Virus record (IMG/VR): IMGVR_UViG_2974574300_000001
Span: 20,420-84,419 of that record
Direction: 5' to 3' (one strand)
Origin: a virus
Taxonomy: Duplodnaviria; Heunggongvirae; Uroviricota; Caudoviricetes
DNA: 64,000 nt
Shown: piece by piece, positions 1-62,873 of the stretch
How the letters are laid out: every line of letters begins with the position of its first letter
How positions within the stretch are numbered: the stretch's first letter is position 1
Made by a program: the position numbers and the translations under genes
The notes under the pieces: generated by a model
What the model was told of the DNA's origin: nothing
The model's database searches: none
What the model saw: the letters and a program-made list of their open reading frames with translations, nothing else

Positions 1-1
1 A

Positions 2-5694
<5,693 letters not shown>

Positions 5695-9336: not shown

Positions 9337-9531
9337 ATGCCTACAATCCTAGCAATTCTCCTAAAAAATCTAGGTAGCTTCTTCTGGAAACTCATTTTAT
9401 CCCTTCTAAGTGAATACATGATTGAGAAAGTGTTCTTTAAGCTTGCAAGATACCTTGCGGGTAAGACAGACACACCTATTGATGATGAGTTCGTAGATAA
9501 CTTAGAAAAAGCTTTTAAGGGGGAGAAATAA
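9337..9531 (+). CDS. small membrane protein
   Basis: 64 aa, hydrophobic N-terminal segment ILAILLKNLGSFFWKLILSLL. Confidence 0.35.
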   Translation: MPTILAILLKNLGSFFWKLILSLLSEYMIEKVFFKLARYLAGKTDTPIDDEFVDNLEKAFKGEK

Positions 9532-9897
9532 ATGAAGTGGCTAGAGGAAGCTTTTAAAAATAATATTGGTGCAATTGTTGTTGGTATTTTTAGTGTTATT
9601 GGGATGTATACCACGATGCAAGTTTCAAGTGGTAAGCAAGAAGTGTCTGTCACAACAAAGTTACAGCAGCTAGATAATTATTCCAGAAGTAACTATTCAG
9701 CTATTCGTGATTTACAGTCTGACATGAGACTGATTCAGCTAGGGATGGAGAACCAGAAAGTTCAGTTAGAGAATGTTAAGGGTGAAAACGCAAAACTTAC
9801 CAAAACCCTTGATAAATTCTCTGACAGTGTAAATAATCTGGCTCAATCAGTATCAGCCCTCCAAGCTATTACTGAGAAGAACACAAAAGAACACTGA
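9532..9897 (+). CDS. membrane-anchored coiled-coil protein
   Basis: 121 aa; N-terminal TM (IGAIVVGIFSVIGMY) then coiled-coil-like region. Confidence 0.35.
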   Translation: MKWLEEAFKNNIGAIVVGIFSVIGMYTTMQVSSGKQEVSVTTKLQQLDNYSRSNYSAIRDLQSDMRLIQLGMENQKVQLENVKGENAKLTKTLDKFSDSVNNLAQSVSALQAITEKNTKEH

Positions 9898-15002: not shown

Positions 15003-15304
15003 TTTCTCTTACCACCAATCTCTACGTCGATAACTTGAACATCGCCAGCAACATCAAACTTATGAATGATGCTTTCAACAGTGTAAGTCCAACCATCAAT
15101 GCGAACCAGCTCACCTTCTCGTGGAACTATTGGATTACGTTGAGCTACGGTTGTAGTGGAGTGAACAGCATCATAACAGTAGATATAGTTTACTAGGACT
15201 TCCATCGTGAAAACCTCACTCAATAACCGTAGTATGTGATTCCCCATTTTTGCCATAGCTGTAAGATGTTGTTGTTTGAGAGTTTGGGCATCTGACAACA
15301 ACAA
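14999..15304 (-). CDS. hypothetical protein
   Basis: 101 aa ORF. Confidence 0.35.
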   Translation of the reverse strand: MLLSDAQTLKQQHLTAMAKMGNHILRLLSEVFTMEVLVNYIYCYDAVHSTTTVAQRNPIVPREGELVRIDGWTYTVESIIHKFDVAGDVQVIDVEIGGKRK

Positions 15305-15473
15305 TATCTCTGCTTATAGCATCACCATGTAACTTGTATACTCTGCAATCTTGCATCTCTGGTGGGAGGCTGTAAGAAGCATTTTTATCTTCATAAGAAG
15401 GGTTGCAGCCAGATAGAAAAATTACTCCAAGTGCAACCATTGCTTTCACACAACTCTTAACCTTATTGTTCAC
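15216..15473 (-). CDS. small lipoprotein (possible superinfection-exclusion type)
   Basis: 85 aa; signal peptide with lipobox LSGC, two further Cys in the mature part. Confidence 0.45.
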   Translation of the reverse strand: MNNKVKSCVKAMVALGVIFLSGCNPSYEDKNASYSLPPEMQDCRVYKLHGDAISRDIVVVRCPNSQTTTSYSYGKNGESHTTVIE

Positions 15474-22589: not shown

Positions 22590-24567
22590 AGGTCGTAAAT
22601 TGAAAGAGGCTGGTCAGTTTATTGGTCATTGTGCATGTCCACGTTGTGGTTCATCAGATGCTGGTTCAATCTACCATCATGACGATGATTCTTATTCGAT
22701 GACTTGCTTTAGCTGTAACAAAGGTTTCCCAGAGTGGGATTTTGATAAAGGACAAATCGTGAGCACTTATTCTACTGGTTCAGACAATAAAAACCGTACT
22801 TTCCGTGGAATGGATTTAGAAGATGTAAAAGAAAACCTTGAAGCAATGGACTTGAAAGACAGGAAGATTCCTGCAAAAGTTCTTGAGCGTTTGGGTATCA
22901 AAGTTGACATTGACAGTGACGGTGAAATTGACGCACATTTCTACCCAACTTACAAACGCAATGAAGATGGCAAGCTAGAGCACGTTGGTTACCGTGTACG
23001 TCATCGTTATCCAGAAGACCATCCAAAAGAACACCTACGAGGTAAGCTAAAAGACTTTTCAGGTGGTGTTGGAGACATTAAAGGTGAACTGGCAATGTTC
23101 GGTTCATGGATTGCTCCAGAAGGTGGTAACCGTCTATTCATCTGGGAAGGTGAGATGGAATGTGCGACAGCAATCTATATGACTTCTCTTGCGATTAAGG
23201 ACAAGTCTCGTCGTAAAAATTACTGTCACGTATCTGTTCCATCAGGTGCAAACATCAAGTCTATCAAAGATAACTATCAGTACATTACATCATTTGATGA
23301 AATCTACTTGTGCTTTGATAACGATGAAGCAGGTGCTAAAGCTACCAAAGAGGCTGCTGGCATTCTCCCTATCGAGAAGGTTCGTTTATTCCAGTATCCA
23401 GAGGGTGTAAAAGACCTTAACGAATGGTGGACAAAGTTCTATAAAGAGAAAGATACAGTTCTGGAAGGATTTAAGCAGCGTATCTACAATGCACCCCGTT
23501 ACTGCCCTGCTGGTATCAAGAACTTCGCAGATGGTTTTGAGGCAATGAAGAACCGTGGTCAGATTCCATTGATTCCTTTCCCAGAATCATTCGGAGATTT
23601 GAACAGACTGACTTATGGTGGTTATGGGCTAGGTGAGATTACAACTCTGGCAGCACCATCTTCAGTGGGTAAATCAGCATACACTCGTGAAATGATTTAC
23701 ACAGCTTGGAAAGATACCGATTACAATATTGGTGTAATTCCTGTAGAGGATACCTATGAAGAGTTGATGGAGATGCTCTGTGCAATCCACCTGAGCAAGC
23801 AGATTTCTGAGATTCCTTATGACGAACGTGATTGGGATGAATTGAAGGAAGCACACGCAGAACTATCTAAAGGTCGTCGTATCCACATCGTAGACCATCA
23901 AGGGGCAATTGACCAAGATAACTTGCTGGAGTTTGTTGACTATCTTGTTAATAGCCTTGATTGTAAGATTATTATTCTTGACCCTATTACGTTGGCTCTG
24001 TCACGTTCAGATACGGATGAAGAGGAAGTTTTGTCTGAGCTATTGCGCCGTTGCAAACGCTACCAGTATGCACAGGTGAACGTCTGCCACGTTCGTAAAA
24101 GTGCAGGTGGTCAGAAGGCTAACTCTGAAGGTGGAGATATCTCTGAAGAGGATATTAAAGGTTCTGGTGCGTATTTCCAGATTTCTATGAACAACATTCT
24201 GTTAATGCGTAACAAGGTTGACCCAGACCCTGTTAAGAAAAACCTGACAAAAATCAAGTTAACTAAATGTCGTCGTCACGGTAAGTCAACGGGTATTGCT
24301 GGTCATACTTGGTACAATCCAGATACAGGACGCCTCATCAAAGCATCTGGTTGCGGAGTTGACATTGATGGTGCAGCAGAGAATATTCGCCAACAGTTTG
24401 GTATTGGCGAAGCTGAAGACCATTACGATGACTCTTTGCCACATTATGAGGATGAAGTGTTTGACCGTGAGACTGGTGAAGTCTATACTGAAGAGCAGCG
24501 TCAAAGCTCAACGATTCCACCTGTATTAAGTGAGGATGCAGATGACTGCCCATTCGAAACTGAGTGA
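22576..24567 (+). CDS. bifunctional primase-helicase (zinc-finger primase plus DnaB-like helicase)
   Basis: 663 aa; N-terminal CPRCGSSD...CFSCNKGF zinc ribbon, central acidic primase-like region, Walker A LAAPSSVGKSAYT. Confidence 0.75.
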   Translation: MLMSKGRKLKEAGQFIGHCACPRCGSSDAGSIYHHDDDSYSMTCFSCNKGFPEWDFDKGQIVSTYSTGSDNKNRTFRGMDLEDVKENLEAMDLKDRKIPAKVLERLGIKVDIDSDGEIDAHFYPTYKRNEDGKLEHVGYRVRHRYPEDHPKEHLRGKLKDFSGGVGDIKGELAMFGSWIAPEGGNRLFIWEGEMECATAIYMTSLAIKDKSRRKNYCHVSVPSGANIKSIKDNYQYITSFDEIYLCFDNDEAGAKATKEAAGILPIEKVRLFQYPEGVKDLNEWWTKFYKEKDTVLEGFKQRIYNAPRYCPAGIKNFADGFEAMKNRGQIPLIPFPESFGDLNRLTYGGYGLGEITTLAAPSSVGKSAYTREMIYTAWKDTDYNIGVIPVEDTYEELMEMLCAIHLSKQISEIPYDERDWDELKEAHAELSKGRRIHIVDHQGAIDQDNLLEFVDYLVNSLDCKIIILDPITLALSRSDTDEEEVLSELLRRCKRYQYAQVNVCHVRKSAGGQKANSEGGDISEEDIKGSGAYFQISMNNILLMRNKVDPDPVKKNLTKIKLTKCRRHGKSTGIAGHTWYNPDTGRLIKASGCGVDIDGAAENIRQQFGIGEAEDHYDDSLPHYEDEVFDRETGEVYTEEQRQSSTIPPVLSEDADDCPFETE

Positions 24568-33288: not shown

Positions 33289-33530
33289 TGACTTATGTAA
33301 TTTACTCCAAAACTGGATGCCCTCAGTGCGAGACCGCAAAGAATTTTGCAAAAGCTCGTGGTATTGACCATGTTGTGAGAATGTTAGGGCAGGATTATGA
33401 GCTATCAGAACTAATGGATATTGCACAGATGCCAGTTCGTCAGATGCCATTCATCATGAAAACTGATGGACAAAACCTAAAACCTGTTGGGACGCTACAG
33501 AATTTTATGGCAGAGGTGAATAATGCTTAA
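33288..33530 (+). CDS. glutaredoxin/NrdH-like redoxin
   Basis: 80 aa with CPQC active-site motif near the N-terminus. Confidence 0.65.
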   Translation: MTYVIYSKTGCPQCETAKNFAKARGIDHVVRMLGQDYELSELMDIAQMPVRQMPFIMKTDGQNLKPVGTLQNFMAEVNNA

Positions 33531-33729
33531 ACGCCTTTGGGAAGGTTTGGTTGTTGATGCACCAGCTATTGTGATTGGTATGCTTATTGTTAACCTATTT
33601 ACTGACTTTGAACAAGGTTCATTGTTTGGAGCCATGTTACTATGGGTTATCTTTGAAATATTAGAGATACAGTTAGGTATCACTGAAAACCTAAGAGAAC
33701 TCTTTGCGAAGTTTTCTAAAAAGATTTAA
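33523..33729 (+). CDS. small membrane protein
   Basis: 68 aa, two hydrophobic segments. Confidence 0.3.
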   Translation: MLKRLWEGLVVDAPAIVIGMLIVNLFTDFEQGSLFGAMLLWVIFEILEIQLGITENLRELFAKFSKKI

Positions 33730-42716: not shown

Positions 42717-42740
42717 GAGGCTCCTACGGGAGCCTTTTTA
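42717..42740 (+). terminator. rho-independent terminator
   Basis: gaggctcc-tacg-ggagcc followed by ttttt. Confidence 0.6.
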
Positions 42741-42756: not shown

Positions 42757-43092
42757 ATGAAAATCAAAGAGATGAATATTAACGTTGTCTTGGAAGAACG
42801 CTGGGAAAACATTAAGAAACCTGAAGATGGTAAAAAGTTTCTTAACAAAATTTTAGTAGCAGCTAAAGAAGAACTGACGGGTAAGGTTGCAGCAGCAATC
42901 ACAATAAAGGTTTGTGTAAAAGGTCTTCCACAACATCACCAATTTGCACTTGACGAGTTTAAAGAAAGCTTCTACAATCCAAACAAACAGATGCTTGAAA
43001 GTAACTTTGCAGTGTCTACAAGTATCGTCCATGACAGAAGCTTTATCCTTTACAAAAACATGAGAGGTGAGTCATGCAAGCATATTGGATAG
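42757..43092 (+). CDS. hypothetical protein
   Basis: 111 aa ORF. Confidence 0.35.
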   Translation: MKIKEMNINVVLEERWENIKKPEDGKKFLNKILVAAKEELTGKVAAAITIKVCVKGLPQHHQFALDEFKESFYNPNKQMLESNFAVSTSIVHDRSFILYKNMRGESCKHIG

Positions 43093-43250
43093 AAATTTTA
43101 CTGTCACTTGGTAGTGTAGCAGTATTTGTTTACCTTCTTTGCAAGTACTATGCAGAGCACAAGAAGTGTGACTACTGCAACGGAGAAGGGTATACAAGAG
43201 CAGGTTGTTGCCCTATGTGTGGCGGTTCTGGTAAAATGTTTAATAAGTGA
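43074..43250 (+). CDS. small membrane-anchored zinc-finger protein (not in ORF track)
   Basis: 58 aa; N-terminal TM (ILLSLGSVAVFVYLL) then CDYCNGEGYTRAGCCPMCGGSGK (two CxxCxGxG-type units); gaggtg RBS. Confidence 0.35.
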   Translation: MQAYWIEILLSLGSVAVFVYLLCKYYAEHKKCDYCNGEGYTRAGCCPMCGGSGKMFNK

Positions 43251-43278: not shown

Positions 43279-45645
43279 ATGCGCATGGTAAACGACCACG
43301 CAGAAGTGATTAAGAGTTCAACTTCTTTAGAGACGTCTCAAGCACAGATTACAATGACACCTGAAATGTTCAGCCTTCTGAGTTCTGGTGTATACACATT
43401 CAAAGAAAGGGCAGTGATTCGTGAGCTGTCATGTAATGCAGTAGATGCTCAGAAAGAAGCTGGAAAAGAGAACATCCCATTCCATGTGCATTTACCTACT
43501 CGATTTGAGCCTTACTTTGAAGTCCGTGACTTTGGAACTGGTTTAACCCATGACAAAGTAATGAGTTTGTACCTGAACTACGGGGCTTCTACGAAGAACG
43601 ACTCTAATGACTACATTGGTGCAATGGGTATCGGCTCAAAGTCACCGTTTGCAATTGCTCAGTCATTCACAGTATCTAGCTATGTTGATGGTGTTGTTAA
43701 TAAGTACTCTGTTTACCTTGAGAATGGTATCCCTCAAGTGACTAAGCTTACTACCAACCCAACAAATGAACCTAATGGCTTAGCTGTACGTGTGGCAGTT
43801 GCTGACCATCGTATTTCAAAGTTCTTTGAAGAGGCTGGTAACGTATACTCATACTTTGCTGTAAAACCAGAAAGTAATATTGTATATGATGATGTATTAG
43901 CAGACATGAATGTCATTGCCCGTGAAAAAGGTGTTTATGATGCTATGATTCATAAGCAAAGCTGGCGTTCTAGTGGCAACAGGACAGATTTTAATGTGGT
44001 AATGGGTAATATTGCCTATCCAGTTAATATGGAAGCATTACTTGGTGATGATTTCTTCAAAGTCTTGCCAGAATTTTTCCGTAGGAGCGTAGACCTTGTA
44101 AACATTTACATGCCTATTGGTTCAGTTGCTATTGCTGCTTCTCGTGAAGCATTGCAGATGAATGATACGACAAAAAATGTTATCATTGAGGCTACTAAAA
44201 AGATAACTGAAGCAATTACAAAGGATGTTATCAAGAAAGTTAATAGCCAACCTACACTTATGGATGCTGCACAGGCTTATGCGGAGTTGCGTTTGAACTC
44301 ACGAGAAATGTTTAATGCTGTGTGTCCAAAGCTAGAGTGGGGTGGTGTTAAACTTGATACTCTGGAAGAAGAATTACTAAACATTCGTCGTGGGATTATC
44401 TACGCAGAAGACGGCTCAATCATTTATGAACGTGACGGTAAAGGTAATATTAAGGTTGATAGGAACGGAAACAACATCCCTAAAGTAGATTATCTTTATA
44501 ACCCAGTTGCTTATGTCAAGTTCAACTCTTTAGAGAGCAAGATTCGTGCAACAGCACTTTCCTACACTCAAGAGGCAAGTATGTTCAATATCTTTGGCGC
44601 AATGCGTAAAAGCCAAATTGAACAGTTTTTGTTCGTGATTAATGACCGTCGCAATAAAAACGGTACTGAGAAGACTGTAGGCCGCAATCAGATTCTGCGT
44701 GGTGCATGTCGAGACTATGCCAACGAATCAAGTCTGTTTCACAGATACAATGGTATTGTGTTTGTATTCTCGACTGAGAAAGAGTTAGATGATTTAATCA
44801 ATCTGCACAAACTTGATAAAAGCTTGTTAAAGATTGTGAAAATGTCTGATAAGGAACACCATTACCAGCGCAAAGAAGCTGTAAGGGGTGTTGTAAAACT
44901 CTGGAAAGCAGTTCCAGCAGAATCTGTAGCTTCATACACAGAGGTGTCAGAAGACTTAGACACAATTGAAGAACCCCAGCTTTACATTAAGGCAGTAGGT
45001 GACACAGTTGACAGCGAATGTTTTTGCTCATCTCCAGAAGATGTAGCTAAGTCAGTTGCTAATGTTATAGGGAAGACAGTCTATGTTTTCCGAAAAGCAA
45101 ATTGGAAAAAGATACCAGAAGACTGGATTGAAGTAGATGAGAAGCTCTTGAACGACAGCTTAACTGATGTTCATTGGATTAATCATAACAGGTATATGAC
45201 ACGCATCTACATGAATGGTGTTCTTGACCTTACAAGCAGTTGGATTATTGCCAGAAACTTTACATTCAATAACAGGAAGATTTCTCGTGGTTATTGCTAT
45301 TCACGAGATACTAGCAAAACTATCTTCCTAGAGGGTAACGAAGAGGCTGTAGAGGCAATTTTCGGTAAAATCCAGTATGTTGCTGCACCATTTGCATACA
45401 CTTACACTATTAGTGTCTTGCAAACTCTGAAAGGGTGTCTTGACAATAACACAAAGCTTTACAAGAAAATCAGGAAAGCTGGTGACCGTATGGTTATTAA
45501 GGTGACAAACTACCTTTCAAAAAGAAAACAAGAAAACTTCTTGCTTTCCCATTTAGATTGGAATAAAGTGTCACCTATTGAAGTGAGTAAGTTTTTGGGC
45601 TTTAATGTGAAATGTGTTCCAGAAGGTACAACAGTTTACGATTAA
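43279..45645 (+). CDS. rIIA: rIIA protein
   Basis: 788 aa; N-terminus TMTPEMFSLLSSGVYTFKERAVIRELSCNAVDA closely parallels T4 rIIA, followed by GIGSKSPF ATPase-fold motif. Confidence 0.85.
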   Translation: MRMVNDHAEVIKSSTSLETSQAQITMTPEMFSLLSSGVYTFKERAVIRELSCNAVDAQKEAGKENIPFHVHLPTRFEPYFEVRDFGTGLTHDKVMSLYLNYGASTKNDSNDYIGAMGIGSKSPFAIAQSFTVSSYVDGVVNKYSVYLENGIPQVTKLTTNPTNEPNGLAVRVAVADHRISKFFEEAGNVYSYFAVKPESNIVYDDVLADMNVIAREKGVYDAMIHKQSWRSSGNRTDFNVVMGNIAYPVNMEALLGDDFFKVLPEFFRRSVDLVNIYMPIGSVAIAASREALQMNDTTKNVIIEATKKITEAITKDVIKKVNSQPTLMDAAQAYAELRLNSREMFNAVCPKLEWGGVKLDTLEEELLNIRRGIIYAEDGSIIYERDGKGNIKVDRNGNNIPKVDYLYNPVAYVKFNSLESKIRATALSYTQEASMFNIFGAMRKSQIEQFLFVINDRRNKNGTEKTVGRNQILRGACRDYANESSLFHRYNGIVFVFSTEKELDDLINLHKLDKSLLKIVKMSDKEHHYQRKEAVRGVVKLWKAVPAESVASYTEVSEDLDTIEEPQLYIKAVGDTVDSECFCSSPEDVAKSVANVIGKTVYVFRKANWKKIPEDWIEVDEKLLNDSLTDVHWINHNRYMTRIYMNGVLDLTSSWIIARNFTFNNRKISRGYCYSRDTSKTIFLEGNEEAVEAIFGKIQYVAAPFAYTYTISVLQTLKGCLDNNTKLYKKIRKAGDRMVIKVTNYLSKRKQENFLLSHLDWNKVSPIEVSKFLGFNVKCVPEGTTVYD

Positions 45646-45650
45646 AGTGT

Positions 45651-45680
45651 TTGACAAGGGGCTTTGAAGCCCCTTAGAAT
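45651..45680 (+). promoter_or_regulatory. sigma70-like promoter with a hairpin in the spacer, upstream of rIIB
   Basis: ttgaca-aggggctttgaagcccc-tagaat; spacer forms ggggc/gcccc. Confidence 0.4.
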
Positions 45681-45724
45681 AGCCTCACAAAATGATTTAT
45701 TAACTAACAAGAGAGAGTAATAAG

Positions 45725-46834
45725 ATGACTACTAAAACTAAAGCACAGATTGACGCAGAAATTTACAAACTGGTTAAAGAAGGTAAGCTGACTAAAACAG
45801 CTATTGCACAGAAATTTAATACTTCAACCCGTTCAGTTGGTCGTGCTGTAGAGCGTCATGAAGCAACCTTAAAAGGGGATAAGAAGGTGACTTCTACACC
45901 AGCTACTAAGACTTTGAAACAAGTTGCTAAGACTTTTAAAAAGAAAGCTGACAAACCAGTTGAAAAGGTTGTTAAAGAGTCTGTACAGAAAGCTCCAGTA
46001 AATAAACTACATGAAGCTATGCAGAAAGATGACAAGATTGAGTACATGATTACTGGTGACTCTGTAATTATGACTTACGGTTCAGAATCTGAAATTGTTG
46101 AGTCTACTCATCCGAACTATCAAGGGATTGTAGTTCATGTTGTGAAAGGTGAGTTCAAAAAAGCCTTTGAACTGATGAACATTCGTAAGTCTATCGAAAA
46201 CTTCACTCAGGGTGCTATCACAATCAAAGGTGACAAGTTATTCTACGGTGCTGTTGAGATGCGTTCTACTCTGGTTGACCGTATTCTTCACATGATGAAG
46301 ACTGGTGATAAAGGTTTTGAACGACTTGTAATGTTCTTCGAAAAACTGATGGAAAACCCATCTAAAGATTCTGTAGAACAACTTTGGGGCTTCGTATCTC
46401 ACCTTGATGTTGAAATTGATGAAGAAGGATACATCATTGGTTGGAAGAAAGTCTCTACTCGTGAAGGCAAGCTGGTTGACTCCCACACCTACAGAGTACC
46501 TAATGATTTAGGCAACATTGTAGAAATGCCACGTTGGATGGTTGATAATAACCGTAACGTGACTTGCTCTCAAGGTCTTCACGTTGGTGCTTGGGATTAT
46601 GTTCGTTGCTTCTCAGGTGATACAATTCTGAAGGTTCGTGTTCATCCACGAGATGTTGTATCTGTTCCAACTGATTACAACGATATGAAGATGCGCTCGT
46701 CTCGTTATGAAGTTGCAGCAATCGTTGATAATCAACGTAAAGTACTGAAAGCATGGGATGGCAAGACTGAAGCTTTGCATGTCATCGTTGGTACTGCTGG
46801 AGAACTTATCTCCCAACGTAAACGTGAAATCTAA
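45725..46834 (+). CDS. rIIB: rIIB protein
   Basis: 369 aa; LFYGAVEMRSTLVDRIL, EEGYIIGWKKV and PRWMVDNNRNVTCSQGLHVGAWDYV parallel T4 rIIB. Confidence 0.85.
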   Translation: MTTKTKAQIDAEIYKLVKEGKLTKTAIAQKFNTSTRSVGRAVERHEATLKGDKKVTSTPATKTLKQVAKTFKKKADKPVEKVVKESVQKAPVNKLHEAMQKDDKIEYMITGDSVIMTYGSESEIVESTHPNYQGIVVHVVKGEFKKAFELMNIRKSIENFTQGAITIKGDKLFYGAVEMRSTLVDRILHMMKTGDKGFERLVMFFEKLMENPSKDSVEQLWGFVSHLDVEIDEEGYIIGWKKVSTREGKLVDSHTYRVPNDLGNIVEMPRWMVDNNRNVTCSQGLHVGAWDYVRCFSGDTILKVRVHPRDVVSVPTDYNDMKMRSSRYEVAAIVDNQRKVLKAWDGKTEALHVIVGTAGELISQRKREI

Positions 46835-46850
46835 TAAGTAATTTCTTAAA

Positions 46851-46875
46851 AGGCTGCTTCGGCGGCCTTTTTTAT
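46851..46875 (+). terminator. rho-independent terminator
   Basis: aggctgc-ttcg-gcggcct followed by tttttt. Confidence 0.55.
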
Positions 46876-46934
46876 TTGTATTTTGTGCAGAGTGCTGTAT
46901 AATTGTTGTCACGATAAACTAAACAGGAGAACCA

Positions 46935-47483
46935 ATGAAGAAATTGATTCTAGGTTTGTGCTTAATGTTTACAGCACACTTATCTTATGCAGTTGACTGC
47001 CCAGAGCTATCAATTAGCCAAAAAGTAAACATGTTAAAAGCTTACCAGTATGGTGAGAATAACATGGGTAAAGGTTGGGGTATTACTCTAGCAGCTATAG
47101 CCTTACAAGAGTCAGAGTTAGGTCTGAAGGTAGAGAATAAAAAGACCCATGACTATGGTATTTTCCAGAATCACTTGAAGACTGTTGTAAAGCGTAACAA
47201 AATTAGCCCTAATGTGGCTAAAAAGAAACTCTTAAGAGATTTTGATTATGCTGCGAAGGAAACGCACAAAGAGCTTGAGTTTTGGACAAAGGTACATGGT
47301 CAGCCAAAGTCAAAGAAGACTTTACAAAAAGTTTTAGCATCATATAATGCTGGGTATTCGTACAGAATCCCTAAAGCTAAGAAATATTCTCAAGATGTTT
47401 ATAACAATATGAAAGTAATTGCTCAATGTGAATTTGCAACAAACATTTCTAAGGTAAACCATGAAAAAATTAAGAAAGTCTGA
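46935..47483 (+). CDS. secreted lytic transglycosylase-like protein (SLT family)
   Basis: 182 aa; signal peptide MKKLILGLCLMFTAHLSYA; SLT-like motifs AIALQESELG, YGIFQN and ASYNAGYS. Confidence 0.55.
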   Translation: MKKLILGLCLMFTAHLSYAVDCPELSISQKVNMLKAYQYGENNMGKGWGITLAAIALQESELGLKVENKKTHDYGIFQNHLKTVVKRNKISPNVAKKKLLRDFDYAAKETHKELEFWTKVHGQPKSKKTLQKVLASYNAGYSYRIPKAKKYSQDVYNNMKVIAQCEFATNISKVNHEKIKKV

Positions 47484-48156
47484 TGAAGTATTGTGCCATG
47501 CTTATGACTTACAGCCTCATGAGTTAGGACTTGATTCCTGTGTATGGACTCCAGAACAGTGCAGGGATTTTGAAGACACCGCAAGAGAAGTTGTATGTTC
47601 ACTTGAAGAGTTCCACATATCAGAACCAATTGTGAACGTTGTGGACAAAGAGACTGGGCAATCCATAGGTGTAAAACGTGATAGCTTAGTCATAGTCAAC
47701 AAAGACCTTGTAGAGAAAGGTAATCTTATCTTAGCAGATATTGATGGAGTTCTTACAAATTTTAATCACGAAGATTGTTCAACGGAATTGACTGATGGTT
47801 CATTTTCACAGTACACTAATCTTCTTGATTCTGTAAGAGCAAAACCAACGTATGTTTTCAATATCATTGATGCAATTGCTAATCATGCTGCCGTTGGACT
47901 CTTGACAGCGAGAGGTGAATCTCAGAGAATACCCACTGAGATGTTTTTAAGGCATAACACGGAGCATGACTACATGCTTTTTATGCGTGGTTTTGGGACT
48001 AACTCTATAAGTGCAGAAAGTTTGAAAGTGAGGATGATTCAGTCTTGCATTCTGCCTTACTTTAATATAGTATGTTTTATAGAAGACACAGAGAAGAATG
48101 TGCAGAAGGTGAACAGAATCCTTCCACACATCAAAACCATGTTAGTTAAACATTGA
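47461..48156 (+). CDS. hypothetical protein, possible HAD-like hydrolase
   Basis: 231 aa; LILADIDGVLT resembles HAD motif I but is not N-terminal; weak. Confidence 0.3.
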   Translation: MKKLRKSDEVLCHAYDLQPHELGLDSCVWTPEQCRDFEDTAREVVCSLEEFHISEPIVNVVDKETGQSIGVKRDSLVIVNKDLVEKGNLILADIDGVLTNFNHEDCSTELTDGSFSQYTNLLDSVRAKPTYVFNIIDAIANHAAVGLLTARGESQRIPTEMFLRHNTEHDYMLFMRGFGTNSISAESLKVRMIQSCILPYFNIVCFIEDTEKNVQKVNRILPHIKTMLVKH

Positions 48157-48166
48157 GAGAAAACTT

Positions 48167-48631
48167 ATGAACAATATCATTACGGTAGCACTGGACGTTA
48201 CGGCAAACAAATCTGAAGTAGTTCGTAACATTATCAAGAGCAACTTTGAGGGTAAAATCTTCCGTGCTGTCAATGTAAAAGCAGACGGTAACATTCGGGA
48301 GTATCGTGCCCTTTTGAATGTTAAGAAACACGTCAAAGGTGCTGGTTCAACGACTGCACACAAAGAAAACCTGATGACCATCTATGATATTGGGATGGCT
48401 TCAGAATTAGGTGCTGAAGGTATCGTTAAAGAAGGTGCTCCGTATCGCTCTTTCAATCTGGAAACTGCTCTCATGCTTTCCTTTACAAGTGGTTCTAAAA
48501 CAACTACTTATCTCTTTACTGATGCTGCAACGGTATCTGCTATCAAGGATAGCACTGTCAAAGCTGGGGTAGCTGCTGCTGCAAAAGCTTCTTCGATGGC
48601 TGCAAATGTCCTTGCTAAAGTCCTCGGTTAA
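48167..48631 (+). CDS. hypothetical protein
   Basis: 154 aa ORF with Ala-rich C-terminus. Confidence 0.35.
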   Translation: MNNIITVALDVTANKSEVVRNIIKSNFEGKIFRAVNVKADGNIREYRALLNVKKHVKGAGSTTAHKENLMTIYDIGMASELGAEGIVKEGAPYRSFNLETALMLSFTSGSKTTTYLFTDAATVSAIKDSTVKAGVAAAAKASSMAANVLAKVLG

Positions 48632-48642
48632 GGTTAAGATAC

Positions 48643-48666
48643 AGGCTCCTTCGGGAGCCTTTTTCA
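48643..48666 (+). terminator. rho-independent terminator
   Basis: ggctcc-ttcg-ggagcc followed by tttttc. Confidence 0.6.
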
Positions 48667-48683
48667 TTTCAGGAGATTGTTAA

Positions 48684-49031
48684 ATGACATTTAAAGAGTT
48701 CTGTCAAGCCACTTTCATAATTGTTTTCTTAGTTGGGGCAGGTGTCTGGGGAGGATACTCTTACAGAGACTGTCAAGTTGCTGAAACTGAGCTAAACAAT
48801 CAAAAGCTCATAAGTGTTGCTAAAGATGCTTATCAGGAAGGATTAGTCACACTGAGCACCAATTACAAAAATGATTTGAAAGATGTGCTTGCTAAGAATA
48901 AGCATACAAAAGAGGTACTAACATATGAAAAAACTAAGCCAGAGTTTTATAATGTTTGTGTTACTGATAACTATGTCAGGGTGTTCAACGAACAAAGTGA
49001 ACAGTACATTCAAAAACTCCCAAGTAAGTGA
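48684..49031 (+). CDS. putative i-spanin (inner-membrane spanin subunit)
   Basis: 115 aa; N-terminal TM (ATFIIVFLVGAGVWGGY) and charged periplasmic domain; 3' end overlaps a lipoprotein ORF in another frame. Confidence 0.45.
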   Translation: MTFKEFCQATFIIVFLVGAGVWGGYSYRDCQVAETELNNQKLISVAKDAYQEGLVTLSTNYKNDLKDVLAKNKHTKEVLTYEKTKPEFYNVCVTDNYVRVFNEQSEQYIQKLPSK

Positions 49032-49194
49032 GAGCGATAAGTACACTCAAGAAGAGTCACAGTATATCATCAAAGGCAACACAGGCAGTGATGTAGCAGC
49101 AGCCCTTGAGTTCTATCGTGACGGCTTTTACCAGTGTACAATCAAAGCTAATAACCTTATTGACATGATTTTATTAGGGAATAAGCAGCAATGA
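48925..49194 (+). CDS. putative o-spanin (outer-membrane lipoprotein spanin subunit)
   Basis: 89 aa; signal peptide with lipobox ITMSGC, one further Cys; start embedded in the 3' end of 48684..49031. Confidence 0.45.
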   Translation: MKKLSQSFIMFVLLITMSGCSTNKVNSTFKNSQVSESDKYTQEESQYIIKGNTGSDVAAALEFYRDGFYQCTIKANNLIDMILLGNKQQ

Positions 49195-49460
49195 CAGAGA
49201 ATCAAGATACTTTCTATGTAGAAGGTTACTTACTGTTACCACGACCAAAAGAAACTTATATGCGAATTGATTTCTCACCAACCATCATGGATAATGTGAT
49301 GTGCCATATCTTTATGCAAGGTGTCACAGCACAACTTAAGCATGTTGGCAAAGAGTGCAAAATAAAGGTTGACACTCATCCAGAAATCAAAGAAAATCAC
49401 TACACATGGTTCTTACCAGACTCTAAAGAAATCTTAGCAGTTCTTAAAACGAGGAAGTAA
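49191..49460 (+). CDS. hypothetical protein
   Basis: 89 aa ORF. Confidence 0.35.
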   Translation: MTENQDTFYVEGYLLLPRPKETYMRIDFSPTIMDNVMCHIFMQGVTAQLKHVGKECKIKVDTHPEIKENHYTWFLPDSKEILAVLKTRK

Positions 49461-49462
49461 CT

Positions 49463-49786
49463 ATGCAGATTAATGGAAGAGACTTTGTAGCCGTTTACTA
49501 CGAGAAAGGTAAAGAGGTTGGTGTAGCACAAGTAACTTATGGCAATGGTAAGTGGCTATATGGAACAATCGCAGTAGTAGGAACAAGAAGTGATACAAAA
49601 ACTTTTAAAGATTGTGTTGACCTTCTTGAAGAATCCATCCAGAATCATTGGTGTCTGATATGGATGACTGATAACGAAGTGATGGAGCGTTTCAAAAAGA
49701 TTGATATCAACATTGACAGTATTGAGCATGTTGATTTATATGAGCTAACTGAGAAGGTAAACTATGAAAGCTCTAGAGGTAATTGA
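49463..49786 (+). CDS. hypothetical protein
   Basis: 107 aa ORF. Confidence 0.35.
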   Translation: MQINGRDFVAVYYEKGKEVGVAQVTYGNGKWLYGTIAVVGTRSDTKTFKDCVDLLEESIQNHWCLIWMTDNEVMERFKKIDINIDSIEHVDLYELTEKVNYESSRGN

Positions 49787-50204: not shown

Positions 50205-50984
50205 ATGGGTATTGTAAAAGTTGTGAAAGGTAACTTACTGGCTGCCTTCAAAAACACAGATATTGAGTTAATTGCTCATGGTTGCAACTGTCGTAACCTC
50301 ATGGGTGCTGGAATCGCTCAAAAAATTGCTAAGATTTTCCCAAAAGCTGAAGAAGCTGACCGGAAATTCCATAAAAAGTTTGGCTACAGTGCTCATGATA
50401 TCGGATACCAGATGGTCGGTGAGGTGTCACATGCTCGAACGGAGTATGGTTACATTTTTAACCTATATACACAGTTGGATGTTGGGAAGTGTGCATCATA
50501 CCGATACTTAGTGGAGTCACTAGAAAAACTCCGTAAATTTTGCTGGCTGCACAACATTCGTAAGATTGGTTTACCCATGATTGGGGCAGGTATAGGTGGT
50601 TTAGATGCACAAGCTGTGAAAAGCCTCATTAATAGTGTTATGTATAACGTTGATGTGTACCTCTACGTCTATGATGAAACAATGGCAAGTGTAGTTACCC
50701 CTAAGTATGCTACCTCAGCACCACAATTCTATGATGGTGTCGTGCTAAGTGACGGGAAGACTAATCAAGTTACCCTCTATCAACTTGTTGAAGGTAAGGT
50801 CGAGGTTAGTTACCCTCTGGTTAGTGAGATGGGTATGTGCAACAGTGAAATGTTCCCAGTTGACCCGTTTGGAAGATATGAAGGTGTATTCTTTGATAAC
50901 TACCCAGCAGCGTACATCTACACAACAAATCAGGATGAAGTTCACTACTTGCTGTATTCTAAAAAGTTCAAATTCATAAGCTGA
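50205..50984 (+). CDS. macro-domain-like protein (ADP-ribose binding/processing)
   Basis: 259 aa; ELIAHGCNCRNLMGAGIAQKIAKIFP resembles the macro-domain glycine-rich loop of the OARD1/TARG1-like subgroup, as recalled. Confidence 0.45.
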   Translation: MGIVKVVKGNLLAAFKNTDIELIAHGCNCRNLMGAGIAQKIAKIFPKAEEADRKFHKKFGYSAHDIGYQMVGEVSHARTEYGYIFNLYTQLDVGKCASYRYLVESLEKLRKFCWLHNIRKIGLPMIGAGIGGLDAQAVKSLINSVMYNVDVYLYVYDETMASVVTPKYATSAPQFYDGVVLSDGKTNQVTLYQLVEGKVEVSYPLVSEMGMCNSEMFPVDPFGRYEGVFFDNYPAAYIYTTNQDEVHYLLYSKKFKFIS

Positions 50985-61119: not shown

Positions 61120-61146
61120 GAAAATAAAAAGGCTCCCGAAGGAGCC
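61120..61146 (-). terminator. rho-independent terminator downstream of the endolysin
   Basis: minus strand reads ggctcc-ttcg-ggagcc followed by tttttatttt. Confidence 0.6.
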
Positions 61147-61156
61147 TATGAAGATA

Positions 61157-61621
61157 TTACTTTGGGTATACACTGTCAAGATAAATGTCAGCTTCCATTC
61201 TACGTCTGTTTTTCAGGCCGTTTGAAGTGACCTTCTTACCTTTGACTGTAACCTTGTTCCACCACTGCATAGCTTCTGCACAACCTACCTTATTACCAGC
61301 GTTGTGGCGCTTGATAAATGTAGAATCCTGCATAGCTGTGATACCGATGTTGTATGTTTCACTTACAAGTGCATCGAACTCGTTCTGAGAAGTTGGAACC
61401 TTGATGGCTTTGTTCACCGCTGCAACGAACTTCTCAACATCTGCGAGAAGATACTGTTCAGCTTGTTCAGCCGTAATTTTCATACCCATCTTAACAGGTT
61501 TTCCGTCAATACGGATTGTACCATACCCGATTGTTGGGATTCCGGCAGAATCTTCGTAAGCCTCTAGCTTAAGACCTTCAAAGAACTTAATAGCTTCTAA
61601 ACCTTTTCTTGAGAGTTGCAT
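61157..61621 (-). CDS. endolysin, phage lysozyme (GH24-type)
   Basis: 154 aa; N-terminal GLEAIKFFEGLKLEAYEDSAGIPTIGYGT matches the phage-lysozyme E...D...T(I/L)GYG signature. Confidence 0.8.
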   Translation of the reverse strand: MQLSRKGLEAIKFFEGLKLEAYEDSAGIPTIGYGTIRIDGKPVKMGMKITAEQAEQYLLADVEKFVAAVNKAIKVPTSQNEFDALVSETYNIGITAMQDSTFIKRHNAGNKVGCAEAMQWWNKVTVKGKKVTSNGLKNRRRMEADIYLDSVYPK

Positions 61622-62505
61622 TATGCCTCCCCTGCTGGGTTAACAGTAACTGTTGCTGCGTTAGATGTTACAGAGCCACCTGCACCAGTAACTACACAGG
61701 TGTAGCTTCCTGCATCAGCAGTGGTTGCACCTTCTTTGGTGTAAGTTGCAGTAGTTGCATCGAGGATGTCTTCCTCCCCTTTCTTCCACTGGTAACCTGT
61801 CGCACCTGTTGCAGTCACTTCCAAGTTAATGCTTCCACCCTCATTGATGGTCTGGCTAGAAGGTTGCTGTGTAATCACAGGCAGTGCGTTGACAGTAACT
61901 GTTGCCGCATCTGAGGTAACACTTGTCCCAGCCTCTCCAGATACAACACAAGTATAGGAGCCAGCATCAGAAGGTGCTACAGACTGTTTTGTGTAGGTTG
62001 CAGATGTGGCACTAGTGATATCCTCACCACCCTTTTTCCACTGATATCCAGTGGCATTGGTTGCAATAACGCTTAGGGTAAGTGTGTCACCTTCATTTAC
62101 TGTTTGATTGGTTGGCTGCTGAGTGATTGCTGGTGGCTTGATAGCATCCTTCAACTTAGCATTCAACATTGAGAACGGATTAACCCTTACCAGCCATTCA
62201 CAATAAATTGTATCAACGTCTTTACCATTGATAATTGCATATTGTAAGTCCATGAAGAAGTCAGAAGTTCTCATTTGAGCACCGATGCTGTAAAGCAACT
62301 CATCACTAAATGGAACTTTGTAGTCTGGTTTGTAGTCAAACTCCTCAACTTCTGCAATATCAGCTTCAGGCCAATACGAACTATAGGTAAGCGGTAAAAT
62401 AGCCTCTTGATATGTTCTAAAATCATATCTCTTACCAGCTTTTACGTTTGCAATGAAGCCCTTCACAAACTCTTTGAAGTCTGGGTAAGTCTTTGCTTTA
62501 ATCAT
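61621..62505 (-). CDS. protein with N-terminal domain paralogous to 62502..62873 plus two tandem Ig-like repeats
   Basis: 294 aa; C-terminal half has two ~85 aa repeats (ITQQP..NEG..L.V.ATGATGYQWKKG.EDI..AT.ATYTK...AGSYTCVV.G..GSVTS.AATVTV). Confidence 0.45.
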   Translation of the reverse strand: MIKAKTYPDFKEFVKGFIANVKAGKRYDFRTYQEAILPLTYSSYWPEADIAEVEEFDYKPDYKVPFSDELLYSIGAQMRTSDFFMDLQYAIINGKDVDTIYCEWLVRVNPFSMLNAKLKDAIKPPAITQQPTNQTVNEGDTLTLSVIATNATGYQWKKGGEDITSATSATYTKQSVAPSDAGSYTCVVSGEAGTSVTSDAATVTVNALPVITQQPSSQTINEGGSINLEVTATGATGYQWKKGEEDILDATTATYTKEGATTADAGSYTCVVTGAGGSVTSNAATVTVNPAGEA

Positions 62506-62873
62506 TTCTTTTTAGCCTCTAAATGTGCGTTTAGTCTAAAATAACCTTTGTGATGCGGAGATACATCACCAACAACAATACCTTTAACCTTATAACCTTT
62601 ACCAATTACATACTGGATATCCATAAGGAATCTTCCAAGTCCAACAATATGGAACATTGGATATAATAGATTCTCAGAGTCTGGAATATTGATTTCGGGT
62701 TTGTAGGTACGCTGTTCGATTGTTGGTGTAATATCTTCTTCAGGCCATTTGCTGAGTCTCCATGTCAAAGGTGTTGGGATAACATCATTAAGGCTGTACC
62801 TTTCACCATTTTGCACGGAATTGATATAGGATTGTAGGAAGCAATAAAAGTCTTTTGCACTCTTAGCTTTCAT
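62502..62873 (-). CDS. paralog of the N-terminal domain of 61621..62505
   Basis: 123 aa; shared features KAK..(Y/K)(P/D)F..F...I.NV..G.RY, WPE.DI and FLMDIQY/FFMDLQY. Confidence 0.4.
   Translation of the reverse strand: MKAKSAKDFYCFLQSYINSVQNGERYSLNDVIPTPLTWRLSKWPEEDITPTIEQRTYKPEINIPDSENLLYPMFHIVGLGRFLMDIQYVIGKGYKVKGIVVGDVSPHHKGYFRLNAHLEAKKK

What the first reader, a model, noticed from the sequence alone, without database searches (positions are those of the whole stretch)
46935..49194. Lysis-related genes are dispersed: SLT-like secreted protein and spanin pair here, endolysin 12 kb away on the other strand
A signal-peptide SLT-type transglycosylase candidate (46935..47483), a TM-anchored coiled protein (48684..49031) and an overlapping lipoprotein ORF (48925..49194, lipobox ITMSGC) resemble an i-spanin/o-spanin pair with partly embedded architecture, but the GH24 endolysin is at 61157..61621 on the minus strand. 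No obvious holin sits next to either; candidates are the small TM proteins at 9337..9897. The SLT-like protein could be a second muralytic activity, possibly virion-associated or secreted.
Basis: partly seen in the sequence, partly recalled or inferred. Interest (0 to 1): 0.4.

Follow-up and report, generated by a model that had tools for sequence, protein, structure and literature searches.

The report
Felix O1 scattered lysis genes, already known
This stretch of a Felix O1-type Salmonella phage does encode an overlapping inner/outer-membrane spanin pair and a secreted cell-wall-cutting enzyme far from the main endolysin, but this scattered, T4-like layout is already annotated and published, so the finding is correct but ordinary.

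Summary
The window is a Felix O1-type Salmonella myophage, about 98-99% identical to NC_005282.

- **Spanins.** 48684..49031 is the i-spanin. 48925..49194 is an o-spanin in the +1 frame with a 107-nt overlap and lipobox MSGC (Cys20). The lipoprotein ORF is conserved across Ounavirinae genera and in Kuravirus podophages. It is under strong purifying selection (dN/dS 0.055).
- **Endolysin.** 61157..61621(-) is a soluble GH24 lysozyme coupled to a late tail gene.
- **Holin.** It remains unidentified. A rival curated candidate lies outside the window.

All of this is already in GenBank annotation and in papers (Whichard 2010, Nguyen 2015, Kongari 2018, Nolan 2006). The verdict is correct observation, largely correct interpretation, low novelty. 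The biological role of the Vs.1-type enzyme is the only real open question.

The parts
46848..46871 (+). GC-rich tetraloop hairpin followed by a T-run (terminator-like) between rIIB and the SLT/Vs.1-like gene. A TATAAT box follows at 46898..46903.
   Evidence: 10-bp stem, 5 GC pairs; sequence read.
46935..47483 (+). Vs.1-family secreted GH23 (SLT family 1) lytic transglycosylase, 182 aa. Predicted signal peptide is residues 1-19 (46935..46991), cleaved after S-Y-A. Catalytic Glu59 codon is 47109..47111. Cys22 and Cys165 are a probable disulfide.
   Evidence: Identical in sequence to Felix01p003.
47461..48156 (+). Context gene: HAD-phosphatase-like protein annotated 'polynucleotide kinase'. It resembles only the phosphatase half of T4 PseT. 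It overlaps the SLT gene by 23 nt.
   Evidence: PHROG 3970 at 2e-134; PHROG 505 matches profile positions 157-282 only. Weak DxDG motif alignment to T4-type PseT.
48167..48631 (+). Context gene of unknown function (154 aa, Ala-rich C-terminus, no TMD), conserved upstream of the spanins across Ounavirinae.
   Evidence: PHROG 2267, unknown function.
48643..48660 (+). Terminator-like hairpin AGGCTCCTTCGGGAGCCT plus a T-run, 23 nt before the i-spanin start. There is no room for a promoter between it and the start, so spanin mRNA must come from read-through or from an upstream promoter.
48684..49031 (+). i-spanin (115 aa): N-terminal membrane anchor, periplasmic domain with conserved C-terminal motif YEKTKP.FYN.C..D.Y..FNE. 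Cys92 is conserved.
   Evidence: PHROG 1152 'Rz-like spanin' at 2.2e-40.
48925..49194 (+). o-spanin (89 aa), +1 frame, 107-nt overlap with the i-spanin ('overlapped' architecture). Signal peptide plus lipobox MSGC; Cys20 codon is 48982..48984; Ser at +2. The mature part is proline-free, with conserved motif LEFYRDGFYQC...NNLIDMIL. Cys71 is conserved.
61157..61621 (-). Soluble GH24 (T4-lysozyme-type) endolysin, 154 aa, with no signal peptide or TMD. E15/D24/T30 have the 9/6 spacing I recall for the T4 lysozyme catalytic residues. The start overlaps the stop of the upstream Ig-domain tail gene (TAATG) behind a GGGGAGG Shine-Dalgarno.
   Evidence: PF00959 at 6.6e-41; PHROG 7.
61130..61147 (-). 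Terminator-like hairpin directly after the endolysin, identical in sequence to the hairpin at 48643..48660.
9532..9897 (+). Holin candidate (121 aa; one TMD at about residues 11-29, then a long polar, probably helical C-terminal domain). Untested. Restricted to Ounavirinae.
9337..9531 (+). Small (64 aa) weakly hydrophobic protein directly upstream of the holin candidate; function unknown.
   Evidence: PHROG 402, unknown function.

Best explanation
The window comes from a Felix O1-type virulent myophage whose lysis functions are scattered, as in T4, rather than grouped in a cassette.

1. Spanins. 48684..49031 and 48925..49194 encode a two-component spanin of the 'overlapped' architecture. The i-spanin is anchored in the inner membrane by its N-terminal TMD. 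The o-spanin is exported, lipidated on Cys20 and, with Ser at +2, sorted to the outer membrane. Their conserved C-terminal domains bind across the periplasm. Once the endolysin has removed the peptidoglycan mesh, the complex fuses or disrupts the outer membrane as the last step of lysis. The anatomy is shown here. The mechanism is inferred from the lambda and T4 paradigm.

2. Endolysin. The GH24 enzyme at 61157..61621(-) has no export signal. It is probably made together with late tail proteins and needs a holin that has not been identified.

3. Vs.1-family protein. 46935..47483 encodes a GH23 lytic transglycosylase with a cleavable Sec signal peptide and a probable disulfide. It reaches the periplasm independently of the holin, from a non-structural gene block. 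The most likely role is an accessory, non-essential peptidoglycan-remodelling or loosening enzyme, not the lysis effector and not a virion enzyme. Fold, motifs and export signal are shown here. Enzymatic activity and biological role are inferred.
For: Identity: 98-99% nucleotide identity to Felix O1 and relatives.

Spanins:
- PHROG hit at 2e-40.
- GenBank i-/o-spanin annotation.
- Felix O1 listed as 'overlapped' in the spanin census.
- A +1-frame lipobox ORF conserved in Moogle, SUSP2, Erwinia phage Rouille and a Kuravirus.
- dN/dS 0.055 in the o-spanin frame, and suppressed synonymous change in the overlap.
- One conserved periplasmic Cys in each subunit, matching the near-universal Cys of spanins.

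Endolysin: PF00959 at 140 bits, no hydrophobic segment, TAATG coupling to a tail gene.

Vs.1-like transglycosylase:
- BLASTP E = 1e-16 to a T4-type Vs.1.
- Invariant E-S, Q and YNxG motifs.
- Family members pass Pfam's SLT threshold.
- Profile hit to EtgA and g-type lysozyme.
- AF2 pLDDT 84.7.
- Cys22/Cys165 both present in 10 sequences and both absent in 4.
- ORF3 product not among the Felix O1 virion proteins.

Dispersal stated in the literature. A T4-type genome likewise has e, rI, rIII and pseT.3/pseT.2 far apart.
Against: - No experiment on any of these Felix O1 proteins was found in the searched library.
- The window's own SLT-like protein scores below Pfam's SLT gathering threshold (18.9 vs 21.3 bits).
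- The spanins show no detectable sequence similarity to T4 PseT.3/PseT.2 or to any solved structure.
- The i-spanin's helical or coiled-coil nature could not be confirmed: the AF2 single-sequence model had pLDDT 38.
- The i-spanin's topology is not clearly dictated by flanking charges.
- The o-spanin has no prolines, unlike lambda Rz1.
- Expression timing is unknown.
- The role of Vs.1 is unknown in any phage.
Confidence: 0.87

Rival explanations
1. The SLT-like protein is a virion-associated peptidoglycan hydrolase used to penetrate the cell wall during DNA injection.
For: Many phages carry SLT/GH23 domains in tail or internal virion proteins. T7 gp16, phi29 gp13 and phiKZ gp144 all appear among the fold matches.
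Against: The protein has a cleavable Sec-type signal peptide with only a 13-residue hydrophobic core. It has a co-varying Cys pair typical of periplasmic proteins. It sits next to rIIB and a PNK-like gene, not in the structural module. ORF3's product was not among the 16 Felix O1 virion proteins identified by mass spectrometry. It is a small single-domain protein with no attachment domain.
Confidence: 0.04
2. The SLT-like protein is a second true endolysin that is exported early by Sec (or as a SAR-type enzyme). It is held inactive until membrane depolarisation, so lysis could proceed without a large-hole holin.
For: It has an export signal plus an intact catalytic motif. No holin has been identified with confidence. 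Several records label the protein 'lysin'. To my knowledge, exported endolysins are known elsewhere.
Against: The hydrophobic core is too short for a SAR membrane anchor, and a good cleavage site follows it. The genome also keeps a conventional soluble GH24 endolysin coupled to late genes. The homolog Vs.1 coexists with e, t and the spanins in T4-type phages. To my knowledge vs.1 is not an essential or lysis-defective locus in T4.
Confidence: 0.07
3. The ORF 46935..47483 is a RegB-like endoribonuclease, as annotated in phage Mushroom and several other records.
For: GenBank product names 'endoribonuclease, T4 RegB-like' and 'protein RegB' sit on homologs.
Against: In a T4-type genome, regB is the separate neighbouring gene and vs.1 is the homolog. 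The label evidently derives from the old name 'protein in vs-regB intergenic region'. The motifs and the predicted fold are GH23 lysozyme-like.
Confidence: 0.01
4. The overlapping lipoprotein ORF 48925..49194 is a chance ORF, and the 115-aa membrane protein is not a spanin.
For: The o-spanin's best PHROG family is 'unknown function', and its hit to a spanin family is weak (2.8e-4). RefSeq leaves it 'hypothetical' or uncalled in several genomes.
Against: Frame, start position, signal peptide, lipobox Cys and C-terminal motif are all conserved from Felixounavirus to Kuravirus. dN/dS is 0.055 against more than 1.6 in the control frames. A curated census includes it.
Confidence: 0.02

Closest known systems
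Felix O1 ORF6/ORF7 (Felix01p014/p015) and their orthologs in Mushroom and Moogle, catalogued as 'overlapped' two-component spanins (Kongari et al. 2018)
   Same: Same genes. Each protein differs from Felix O1 by one residue. Same architecture, lipobox and neighbours.
   Different: Nothing of substance. The window's phage lacks Felix O1 ORF9, a short distance downstream.
Lambda Rz/Rz1 (embedded), P2 LysB/LysC (overlapped) and T4 PseT.3/PseT.2 (separated) spanins
   Same: A type-II inner-membrane protein plus an outer-membrane lipoprotein encoded together. The o-spanin is in the +1 frame. Both have periplasmic Cys residues. Sizes (115/89 aa) are close to a T4-type phage's 116/98 aa. In both this phage and a T4-type phage the spanins lie within about 1 kb of a PseT-like phosphatase gene, though in opposite order.
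   Different: No detectable sequence similarity to the T4 pair. The o-spanin has no prolines, whereas lambda Rz1 has 10, and it carries a conserved, probably structured C-terminal motif. The spanins are not in a lysis cassette.
T4 Vs.1 (the 'hypothetical 20.7 kDa protein in vs-regB intergenic region')
   Same: Homologous over about 85% of its length (32% identity, E = 1e-16). Same size, same N-terminal signal peptide and same E-S, Q and YNxG motifs. A tk.4-like macro-domain gene is nearby in both. The similarity of vs.1 to SLT was noted in 2006.
   Different: The genomic neighbours differ: rIIB and a PNK-like gene here, regB and vs in a T4-type genome. The Cys22/Cys165 pair is present here, but at least the N-terminal Cys is missing in the T4-type protein.
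Small periplasmic family-1 lytic transglycosylases: EtgA (T3SS-associated), E. coli MltE, and the Slt70 catalytic domain
   Different: Encoded by a virulent phage, with no associated secretion machine. Sequence identity is only 13-19%. Activity has not been tested.
T4-type dispersed lysis system (e, t, rI, rIII, pseT.3/pseT.2)
   Same: Soluble GH24 endolysin, spanins and (anti)holin functions sit at separate loci. Published as a shared trait of Felix O1-like phages.
   Different: No T-holin, RI or RIII homolog was identified in the window. The holin is unknown.

Membership tests
Two-component spanin (i-spanin / o-spanin) | i-spanin has a single N-terminal TMD, with the bulk of the protein periplasmic | tested here: met
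   One hydrophobic segment at about residues 6-24, and none elsewhere. N-in/C-out orientation is inferred, not computed.
Two-component spanin (i-spanin / o-spanin) | o-spanin has a signal peptidase II signal with a lipobox Cys, and no Asp at +2 (outer-membrane sorting) | tested here: met
   MKKLSQSFIMFVLLITMSG-C20-S-T fits the census pattern [ILMFTV][^REKD][GAS]C as I recalled it (the pattern used in my script also allowed Ala at the first position). Ser is at +2. The lipobox is conserved as ISGC, MSGC, TASC and LSAC in relatives.
Two-component spanin (i-spanin / o-spanin) | The two genes are adjacent, overlapped or embedded, with the o-spanin in a different frame | tested here: met
   +1 frame and 107-nt overlap, i.e. 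the 'overlapped' class.
Two-component spanin (i-spanin / o-spanin) | At least one periplasmic Cys, for intermolecular disulfides | tested here: met
   i-spanin Cys92 and o-spanin Cys71 are conserved in all lineages examined. 507 of 528 known systems have such a Cys.
Two-component spanin (i-spanin / o-spanin) | Helical or coiled-coil periplasmic domain in the i-spanin | tested here: inconclusive
   The AF2 single-sequence model had pLDDT 37.8 and is uninformative. The census reports that coiled-coil content varies widely among spanins.
Two-component spanin (i-spanin / o-spanin) | Required for outer-membrane disruption; complements lambda Rz/Rz1 mutants | not testable with these tools
   No experimental report for Felix O1 spanins was found.
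SLT / GH23 family-1 lytic transglycosylase | Catalytic Glu in an E-S motif, plus the G-x-x-Q and A-Y-N-x-G motifs | tested here: met
   E59, Q78, Y137, N138, G140 and Y151 are invariant across 15 family members. S60 is present in 14 of the 15 (Thr in one).
SLT / GH23 family-1 lytic transglycosylase | Passes the Pfam PF01464 gathering score | tested here: inconclusive
   The window protein scores 18.9 bits against a 21.3 cut-off. Homologs P0015, P0016, P0019 and P0020, from the same PHROG 600, score 29-45 bits.
SLT / GH23 family-1 lytic transglycosylase | Lysozyme-like GH23 fold | tested here: met
SLT / GH23 family-1 lytic transglycosylase | Produces 1,6-anhydro-MurNAc products from peptidoglycan | not testable with these tools
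   Requires enzymology.
T4 Vs.1 family | Full-length sequence homology to T4-type Vs.1, with an N-terminal signal peptide | tested here: met
   BLASTP E = 1e-16 and 32% identity over residues 1-155 to UFV-AREG1 vs.1. About 2100 phage records hold a homolog.
GH24 T4-lysozyme-type endolysin | Phage_lysozyme domain with the Glu/Asp/Thr catalytic residues; no export signal | tested here: met
   PF00959 at 140 bits. E15/D24/T30 have 9/6 spacing, and the maximum hydropathy is 0.81. The comparison with T4 lysozyme's E11/D20/T26 is from memory.
Holin | Small membrane protein that is lethal on triggering and releases the endolysin | not testable with these tools
   Only topology is available. The 121-aa ORF has one TMD and no holin family hit. 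The rival DUF7338 candidate is not encoded in the window.

The most novel reading that the evidence does not exclude
The Vs.1-family enzyme may be a widely conserved, holin-independent 'early' periplasmic lytic transglycosylase. Homologs occur in about 2100 records of large virulent phages: Felix O1-, T4- and Vi1-like phages and Vibrio and Aeromonas myophages. It might have a dedicated role that nobody has defined. Options include pre-softening the sacculus so that spanins fire quickly, supporting cell enlargement during delayed lysis, or generating anhydro-muropeptide signals. That would make it more than a redundant lysin. My evidence shows fold, motifs, export signal and conservation. It does not exclude such a role.
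Probability: 0.25. Interest if true: 0.45.

Novelty: already known. Interest (0 to 1): 0.12.

Why it matters
It matters little as a discovery. The spanin pair, the endolysin and the scattered layout of Felix O1-like lysis genes are in GenBank and in print.

Practical value lies in annotation hygiene:
- Several records miss the o-spanin, or start it downstream of its lipobox.
- Vs.1 homologs are variously labelled 'lysin', 'RegB' or 'endoribonuclease'.
- Two different genes are called 'holin' in this genus, and neither has been tested.

Felix O1-type phages are used for Salmonella typing and biocontrol. Knowing the true holin, and whether the secreted transglycosylase affects lysis timing, would be of modest applied interest.

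Tried and rejected
1. Single-sequence PDB search with the SLT-like protein found nothing. A family profile was needed.
2. PDB sequence searches with both spanins gave only chance-level hits.
3. AF2 on the i-spanin without an alignment gave pLDDT 38, useless for testing the 'coiled' claim.
4. Direct BLASTP of the spanins against T4-type PseT.3/PseT.2 showed no homology. 'T4-like' therefore describes layout and size, not sequence.
5. The PNK-like protein does not hit T4 PseT by tblastn and only weakly by pairwise alignment. The PNK-spanin linkage shared with T4 is suggestive only.
6. A motif search was a misfire and has no bearing on the finding.
7. The Mushroom 'class III holin' was traced to a DUF7338 protein in the tRNA cluster. 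It is not in the window (no tRNAs; tblastn empty). It also occurs at about 60% identity in T4-like phages which, as far as I know, have their own t holin (I did not check for t in those records). I therefore do not accept it as established.
8. A 68-aa two-TMD ORF (33523..33729) looked holin-shaped. It lies between the glutaredoxin and nrdD genes and is nowhere annotated as a holin.
9. The 'RegB-like endoribonuclease' annotation was rejected.
Full report
**Identity of the window.** The region 46500..49500 is 99.0% identical to Salmonella phage Felix O1 (NC_005282 / AF320576) and matches about 250 Felixounavirus records. The endolysin region behaves the same way. Over 45000..49471 identity to Felix O1 is 98.0%. 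The SLT-like protein is identical to its Felix O1 ortholog. The PNK-like protein, ORF5, the i-spanin and the o-spanin each differ by one residue. The window's phage lacks Felix O1 ORF9 just downstream, which explains the length difference seen.

**Observation check.**
- The 182-aa product of 46935..47483 begins MKKLILGLCLMFTAHLSYA|VD. That is two lysines, a 13-residue hydrophobic core and a small-x-small cleavage site. The core is too short to be a membrane anchor.
- The 115-aa product of 48684..49031 has one hydrophobic segment near its N-terminus.
- The 89-aa product of 48925..49194 is in the +1 frame and shares 107 nt with the preceding gene. It begins MKKLSQSFIMFVLLITMSG-C-S-T, a lipoprotein signal with Cys20 and Ser at +2. 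A GAGG sits 9 nt upstream of its ATG.
- The minus-strand ORF 61157..61621 is a GH24 lysozyme (PF00959, 140 bits; PHROG 7 endolysin). It has no hydrophobic segment.

**Are the spanins real?**
- The i-spanin matches PHROG 1152 'Rz-like spanin' at 2.2e-40.
- The pair is annotated i-spanin/o-spanin in VSe11, GEC_vB_B1, Mushroom, Moogle and many other records.
- The spanin census of Kongari et al. 2018 lists '(Felix01, FO1a, UAB_phi87)' under the overlapped architecture.
- I scanned divergent relatives independently. In Moogle (Mooglevirus), SUSP2 (Suspvirus, o-spanin not annotated), Erwinia phage Rouille (Kolesnikvirus, not annotated) and a phiEco32-like Kuravirus podophage, a +1-frame ORF begins about 220-240 nt into the i-spanin gene.
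- In each case it encodes a basic and hydrophobic signal plus a lipobox (ISGC, MSGC, TASC, LSAC). It ends in a shared motif: LEFYRDGFYQC..NNLIDMIL, LEYWRDKYFTC..NGLIDVIL or LEWYQDQYTEC..NGLLEAL.
- The i-spanins share YEKTKP.FYN.C..D.Y..FNE.
- Between the window and SUSP2, the o-spanin segment beyond the overlap has dN/dS 0.055 in its own frame. The other two frames give 3.4 and 1.7. Inside the overlap, dS drops from about 2 to 0.1-0.4 in both frames, as expected for dual coding.
- One periplasmic Cys is conserved in each subunit: i-spanin C92 and o-spanin C71. This fits the census finding that 507 of 528 systems carry such cysteines.
- The pair has no detectable similarity to T4-type PseT.3/PseT.2 or to any solved structure.
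- I could not confirm a coiled coil.
- The o-spanin has no prolines, unlike lambda Rz1, but the census documents structured o-spanins.

**The SLT-like protein.**
- Alone it scores just below Pfam's SLT threshold (18.9 vs 21.3 bits). Its PHROG family (600) is 'unknown function'.
- Collected homologs align with invariant E59, G63, Q78, Y137, N138, G140 and Y151 and near-invariant S60. I recognise these as the family-1 lytic transglycosylase motifs.
- More distant members of the same PHROG pass the SLT threshold at 29-45 bits.
- A profile search of the PDB puts EtgA first (E = 7e-4), followed by goose-type lysozymes.
- The AF2 model has pLDDT 84.7, with more than 90 across the core.
- Cys22 and Cys165 are both present in ten full-length family members and both absent in four. 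This argues for a disulfide and hence a periplasmic location.
- The protein is a homolog of T4-type Vs.1 (32% identity, E = 1e-16). About 2100 phage records carry a homolog, including T4-like, Vi1-like and Vibrio and Aeromonas myophages.
- In a T4-type genome vs.1 sits immediately after regB, between e and rI. This explains the old name in the Felix O1 record ('in vs-regB intergenic region'). It also explains the erroneous 'RegB-like endoribonuclease' labels in Mushroom, Rouille and others.
- Nolan et al. 2006 already reported that vs.1 orthologs match SLT marginally and might act in lysis.
- Whichard et al. 2010 identified 16 Felix O1 virion proteins by mass spectrometry, and ORF3's product is not among them.
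- I found no paper that tests Vs.1 function.

**Transcription context.**
- A strong hairpin with a T-run follows rIIB (46848..46871), and a TATAAT lies at 46898..46903 ahead of the SLT-like gene.
- A second hairpin (48643..48660, AGGCTCCTTCGGGAGCCT) ends 23 nt before the i-spanin ATG. That leaves no room for a promoter, so the spanins are presumably expressed by read-through or from upstream.
- The identical hairpin follows the endolysin on the other strand (61130..61147). Two near-copies lie at 42718 and 46851.
- The endolysin's ATG overlaps the stop codon of the Ig-domain tail gene (TAATG) behind a GGGGAGG, so it is probably co-expressed with late structural genes.
- Timing is inferred. No expression data were available.

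**Dispersal and the holin.**
- The scattered arrangement is already published. [quoted passage not shown] - Mushroom is described as having 'a T4-like lysis system'.
- A T4-type genome indeed has e, rI, rIII and the spanins at widely separated loci.
Whichard lists gp79 among five possibilities. I take the 121-aa ORF to be gp79 from gene order after the gp77 tail fibre, without checking the paper's table. That ORF is labelled 'holin' in many records.
- It has one TMD and a long polar C-terminal domain. It has no holin family hit and is confined to Ounavirinae.
- The curated Mushroom record instead names a 185-aa DUF7338 protein inside the tRNA cluster. That gene is outside this window.
- The DUF7338 protein also occurs at about 60% identity in many T4-like phages which, as far as I know, carry their own t holin. 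This weakens the assignment.
- The holin is therefore unresolved. Because the endolysin is soluble, one must exist.

**Comparison and novelty.** The locus works like a standard three-step Gram-negative lysis system of holin, endolysin and spanin, with a T4-style scattered gene layout. The spanins belong to the overlapped class exemplified by P2 LysB/LysC. The unknown role of the Vs.1-type secreted transglycosylase is the only unanswered biological question, and it is a known unknown. I rate the finding as correct, well read from raw sequence, and of low interest.

Noticed in passing
window 15216..15473 (-): A second predicted lipoprotein: an 85-aa ORF beginning MNNKVKSCVKAMVALGVIFLSG-C-N (lipobox LSGC). 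It belongs to PHROG 902, unknown function. It could be a superinfection-exclusion-type lipoprotein. It is not next to any i-spanin-like gene.
   Followed up: partly
window 33523..33729 (+): A 68-aa protein with two strong TMDs and a charged C-terminus, the shape of a class II holin. It lies between the glutaredoxin and nrdD genes. It is annotated only 'membrane protein' or 'hypothetical' in relatives (PHROG 4532, unknown).
   Followed up: partly
window 43074..43250 (+): A 58-aa protein with an N-terminal TMD followed by a Cys-rich CxxC...CxxC zinc-finger-like tail, just upstream of rIIA. Mushroom calls it 'DnaJ-like'. It is probably Whichard's gp131 holin candidate.
   Followed up: no
window 42718..42735, 46851..46868, 48643..48660 (+) and 61130..61147 (-): A family of near-identical GC-rich tetraloop hairpins (AGGCTCC-TTCG-GGAGCCT) followed by T-runs. 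Two copies are identical, one before the i-spanin and one after the endolysin. About 0.01 such matches are expected by chance.
   Followed up: partly
window about 49448..49471; Felix O1 record 6110..6418: Felix O1 carries an extra ORF9 (103 aa) that is absent from the window and from VSe11 and GEC_vB_B1. The window's 107-aa ORF 49463..49786 corresponds to Felix O1 ORF10.
   Followed up: yes
L011 (SUSP2) 2442..2711; L012 (Rouille) 3212..3487; L013 (Kuravirus VTCCBPA_211) 1679..1939; L003 (GEC_vB_B1) 3998..4195: Annotation errors in public records. The o-spanin is not called in SUSP2 RefSeq or in Erwinia phage Rouille. In the Kuravirus record and in GEC_vB_B1 it is called with a start downstream of the lipobox. 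Many metagenomic gene calls also start at the internal Met17.
   Followed up: yes
L006 (Mushroom) 23873..24421; L012 (Rouille) 1..281; hits H124, H126, H165: Vs.1 homologs are mislabelled 'endoribonuclease / RegB'. The error was evidently propagated from the old Swiss-Prot-style name 'protein in vs-regB intergenic region'.
   Followed up: yes
window 50205..50984 (+): A macro-domain 'phosphatase' annotated as a homolog of T4 Tk.4. With the Vs.1 homolog, it echoes the T4 tk-vs-regB neighbourhood.
   Followed up: no
hits H31 (GU169904.1 'Staphylococcus phage SA1'), H113 and H186 ('Campylobacter phage A126/A132'): Records attributed to Staphylococcus and Campylobacter phages contain 96-99% identical Felix O1-like sequence. 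They are probably contaminated or chimeric assemblies.
   Followed up: no
window 62502..62873 and 61621..62505 (-): The 123-aa ORF upstream of the Ig-domain tail protein matches that protein's N-terminal 120 residues (PHROG 3995/4463 cross-hits). This points to a paralogous pair just upstream of the endolysin.
   Followed up: no
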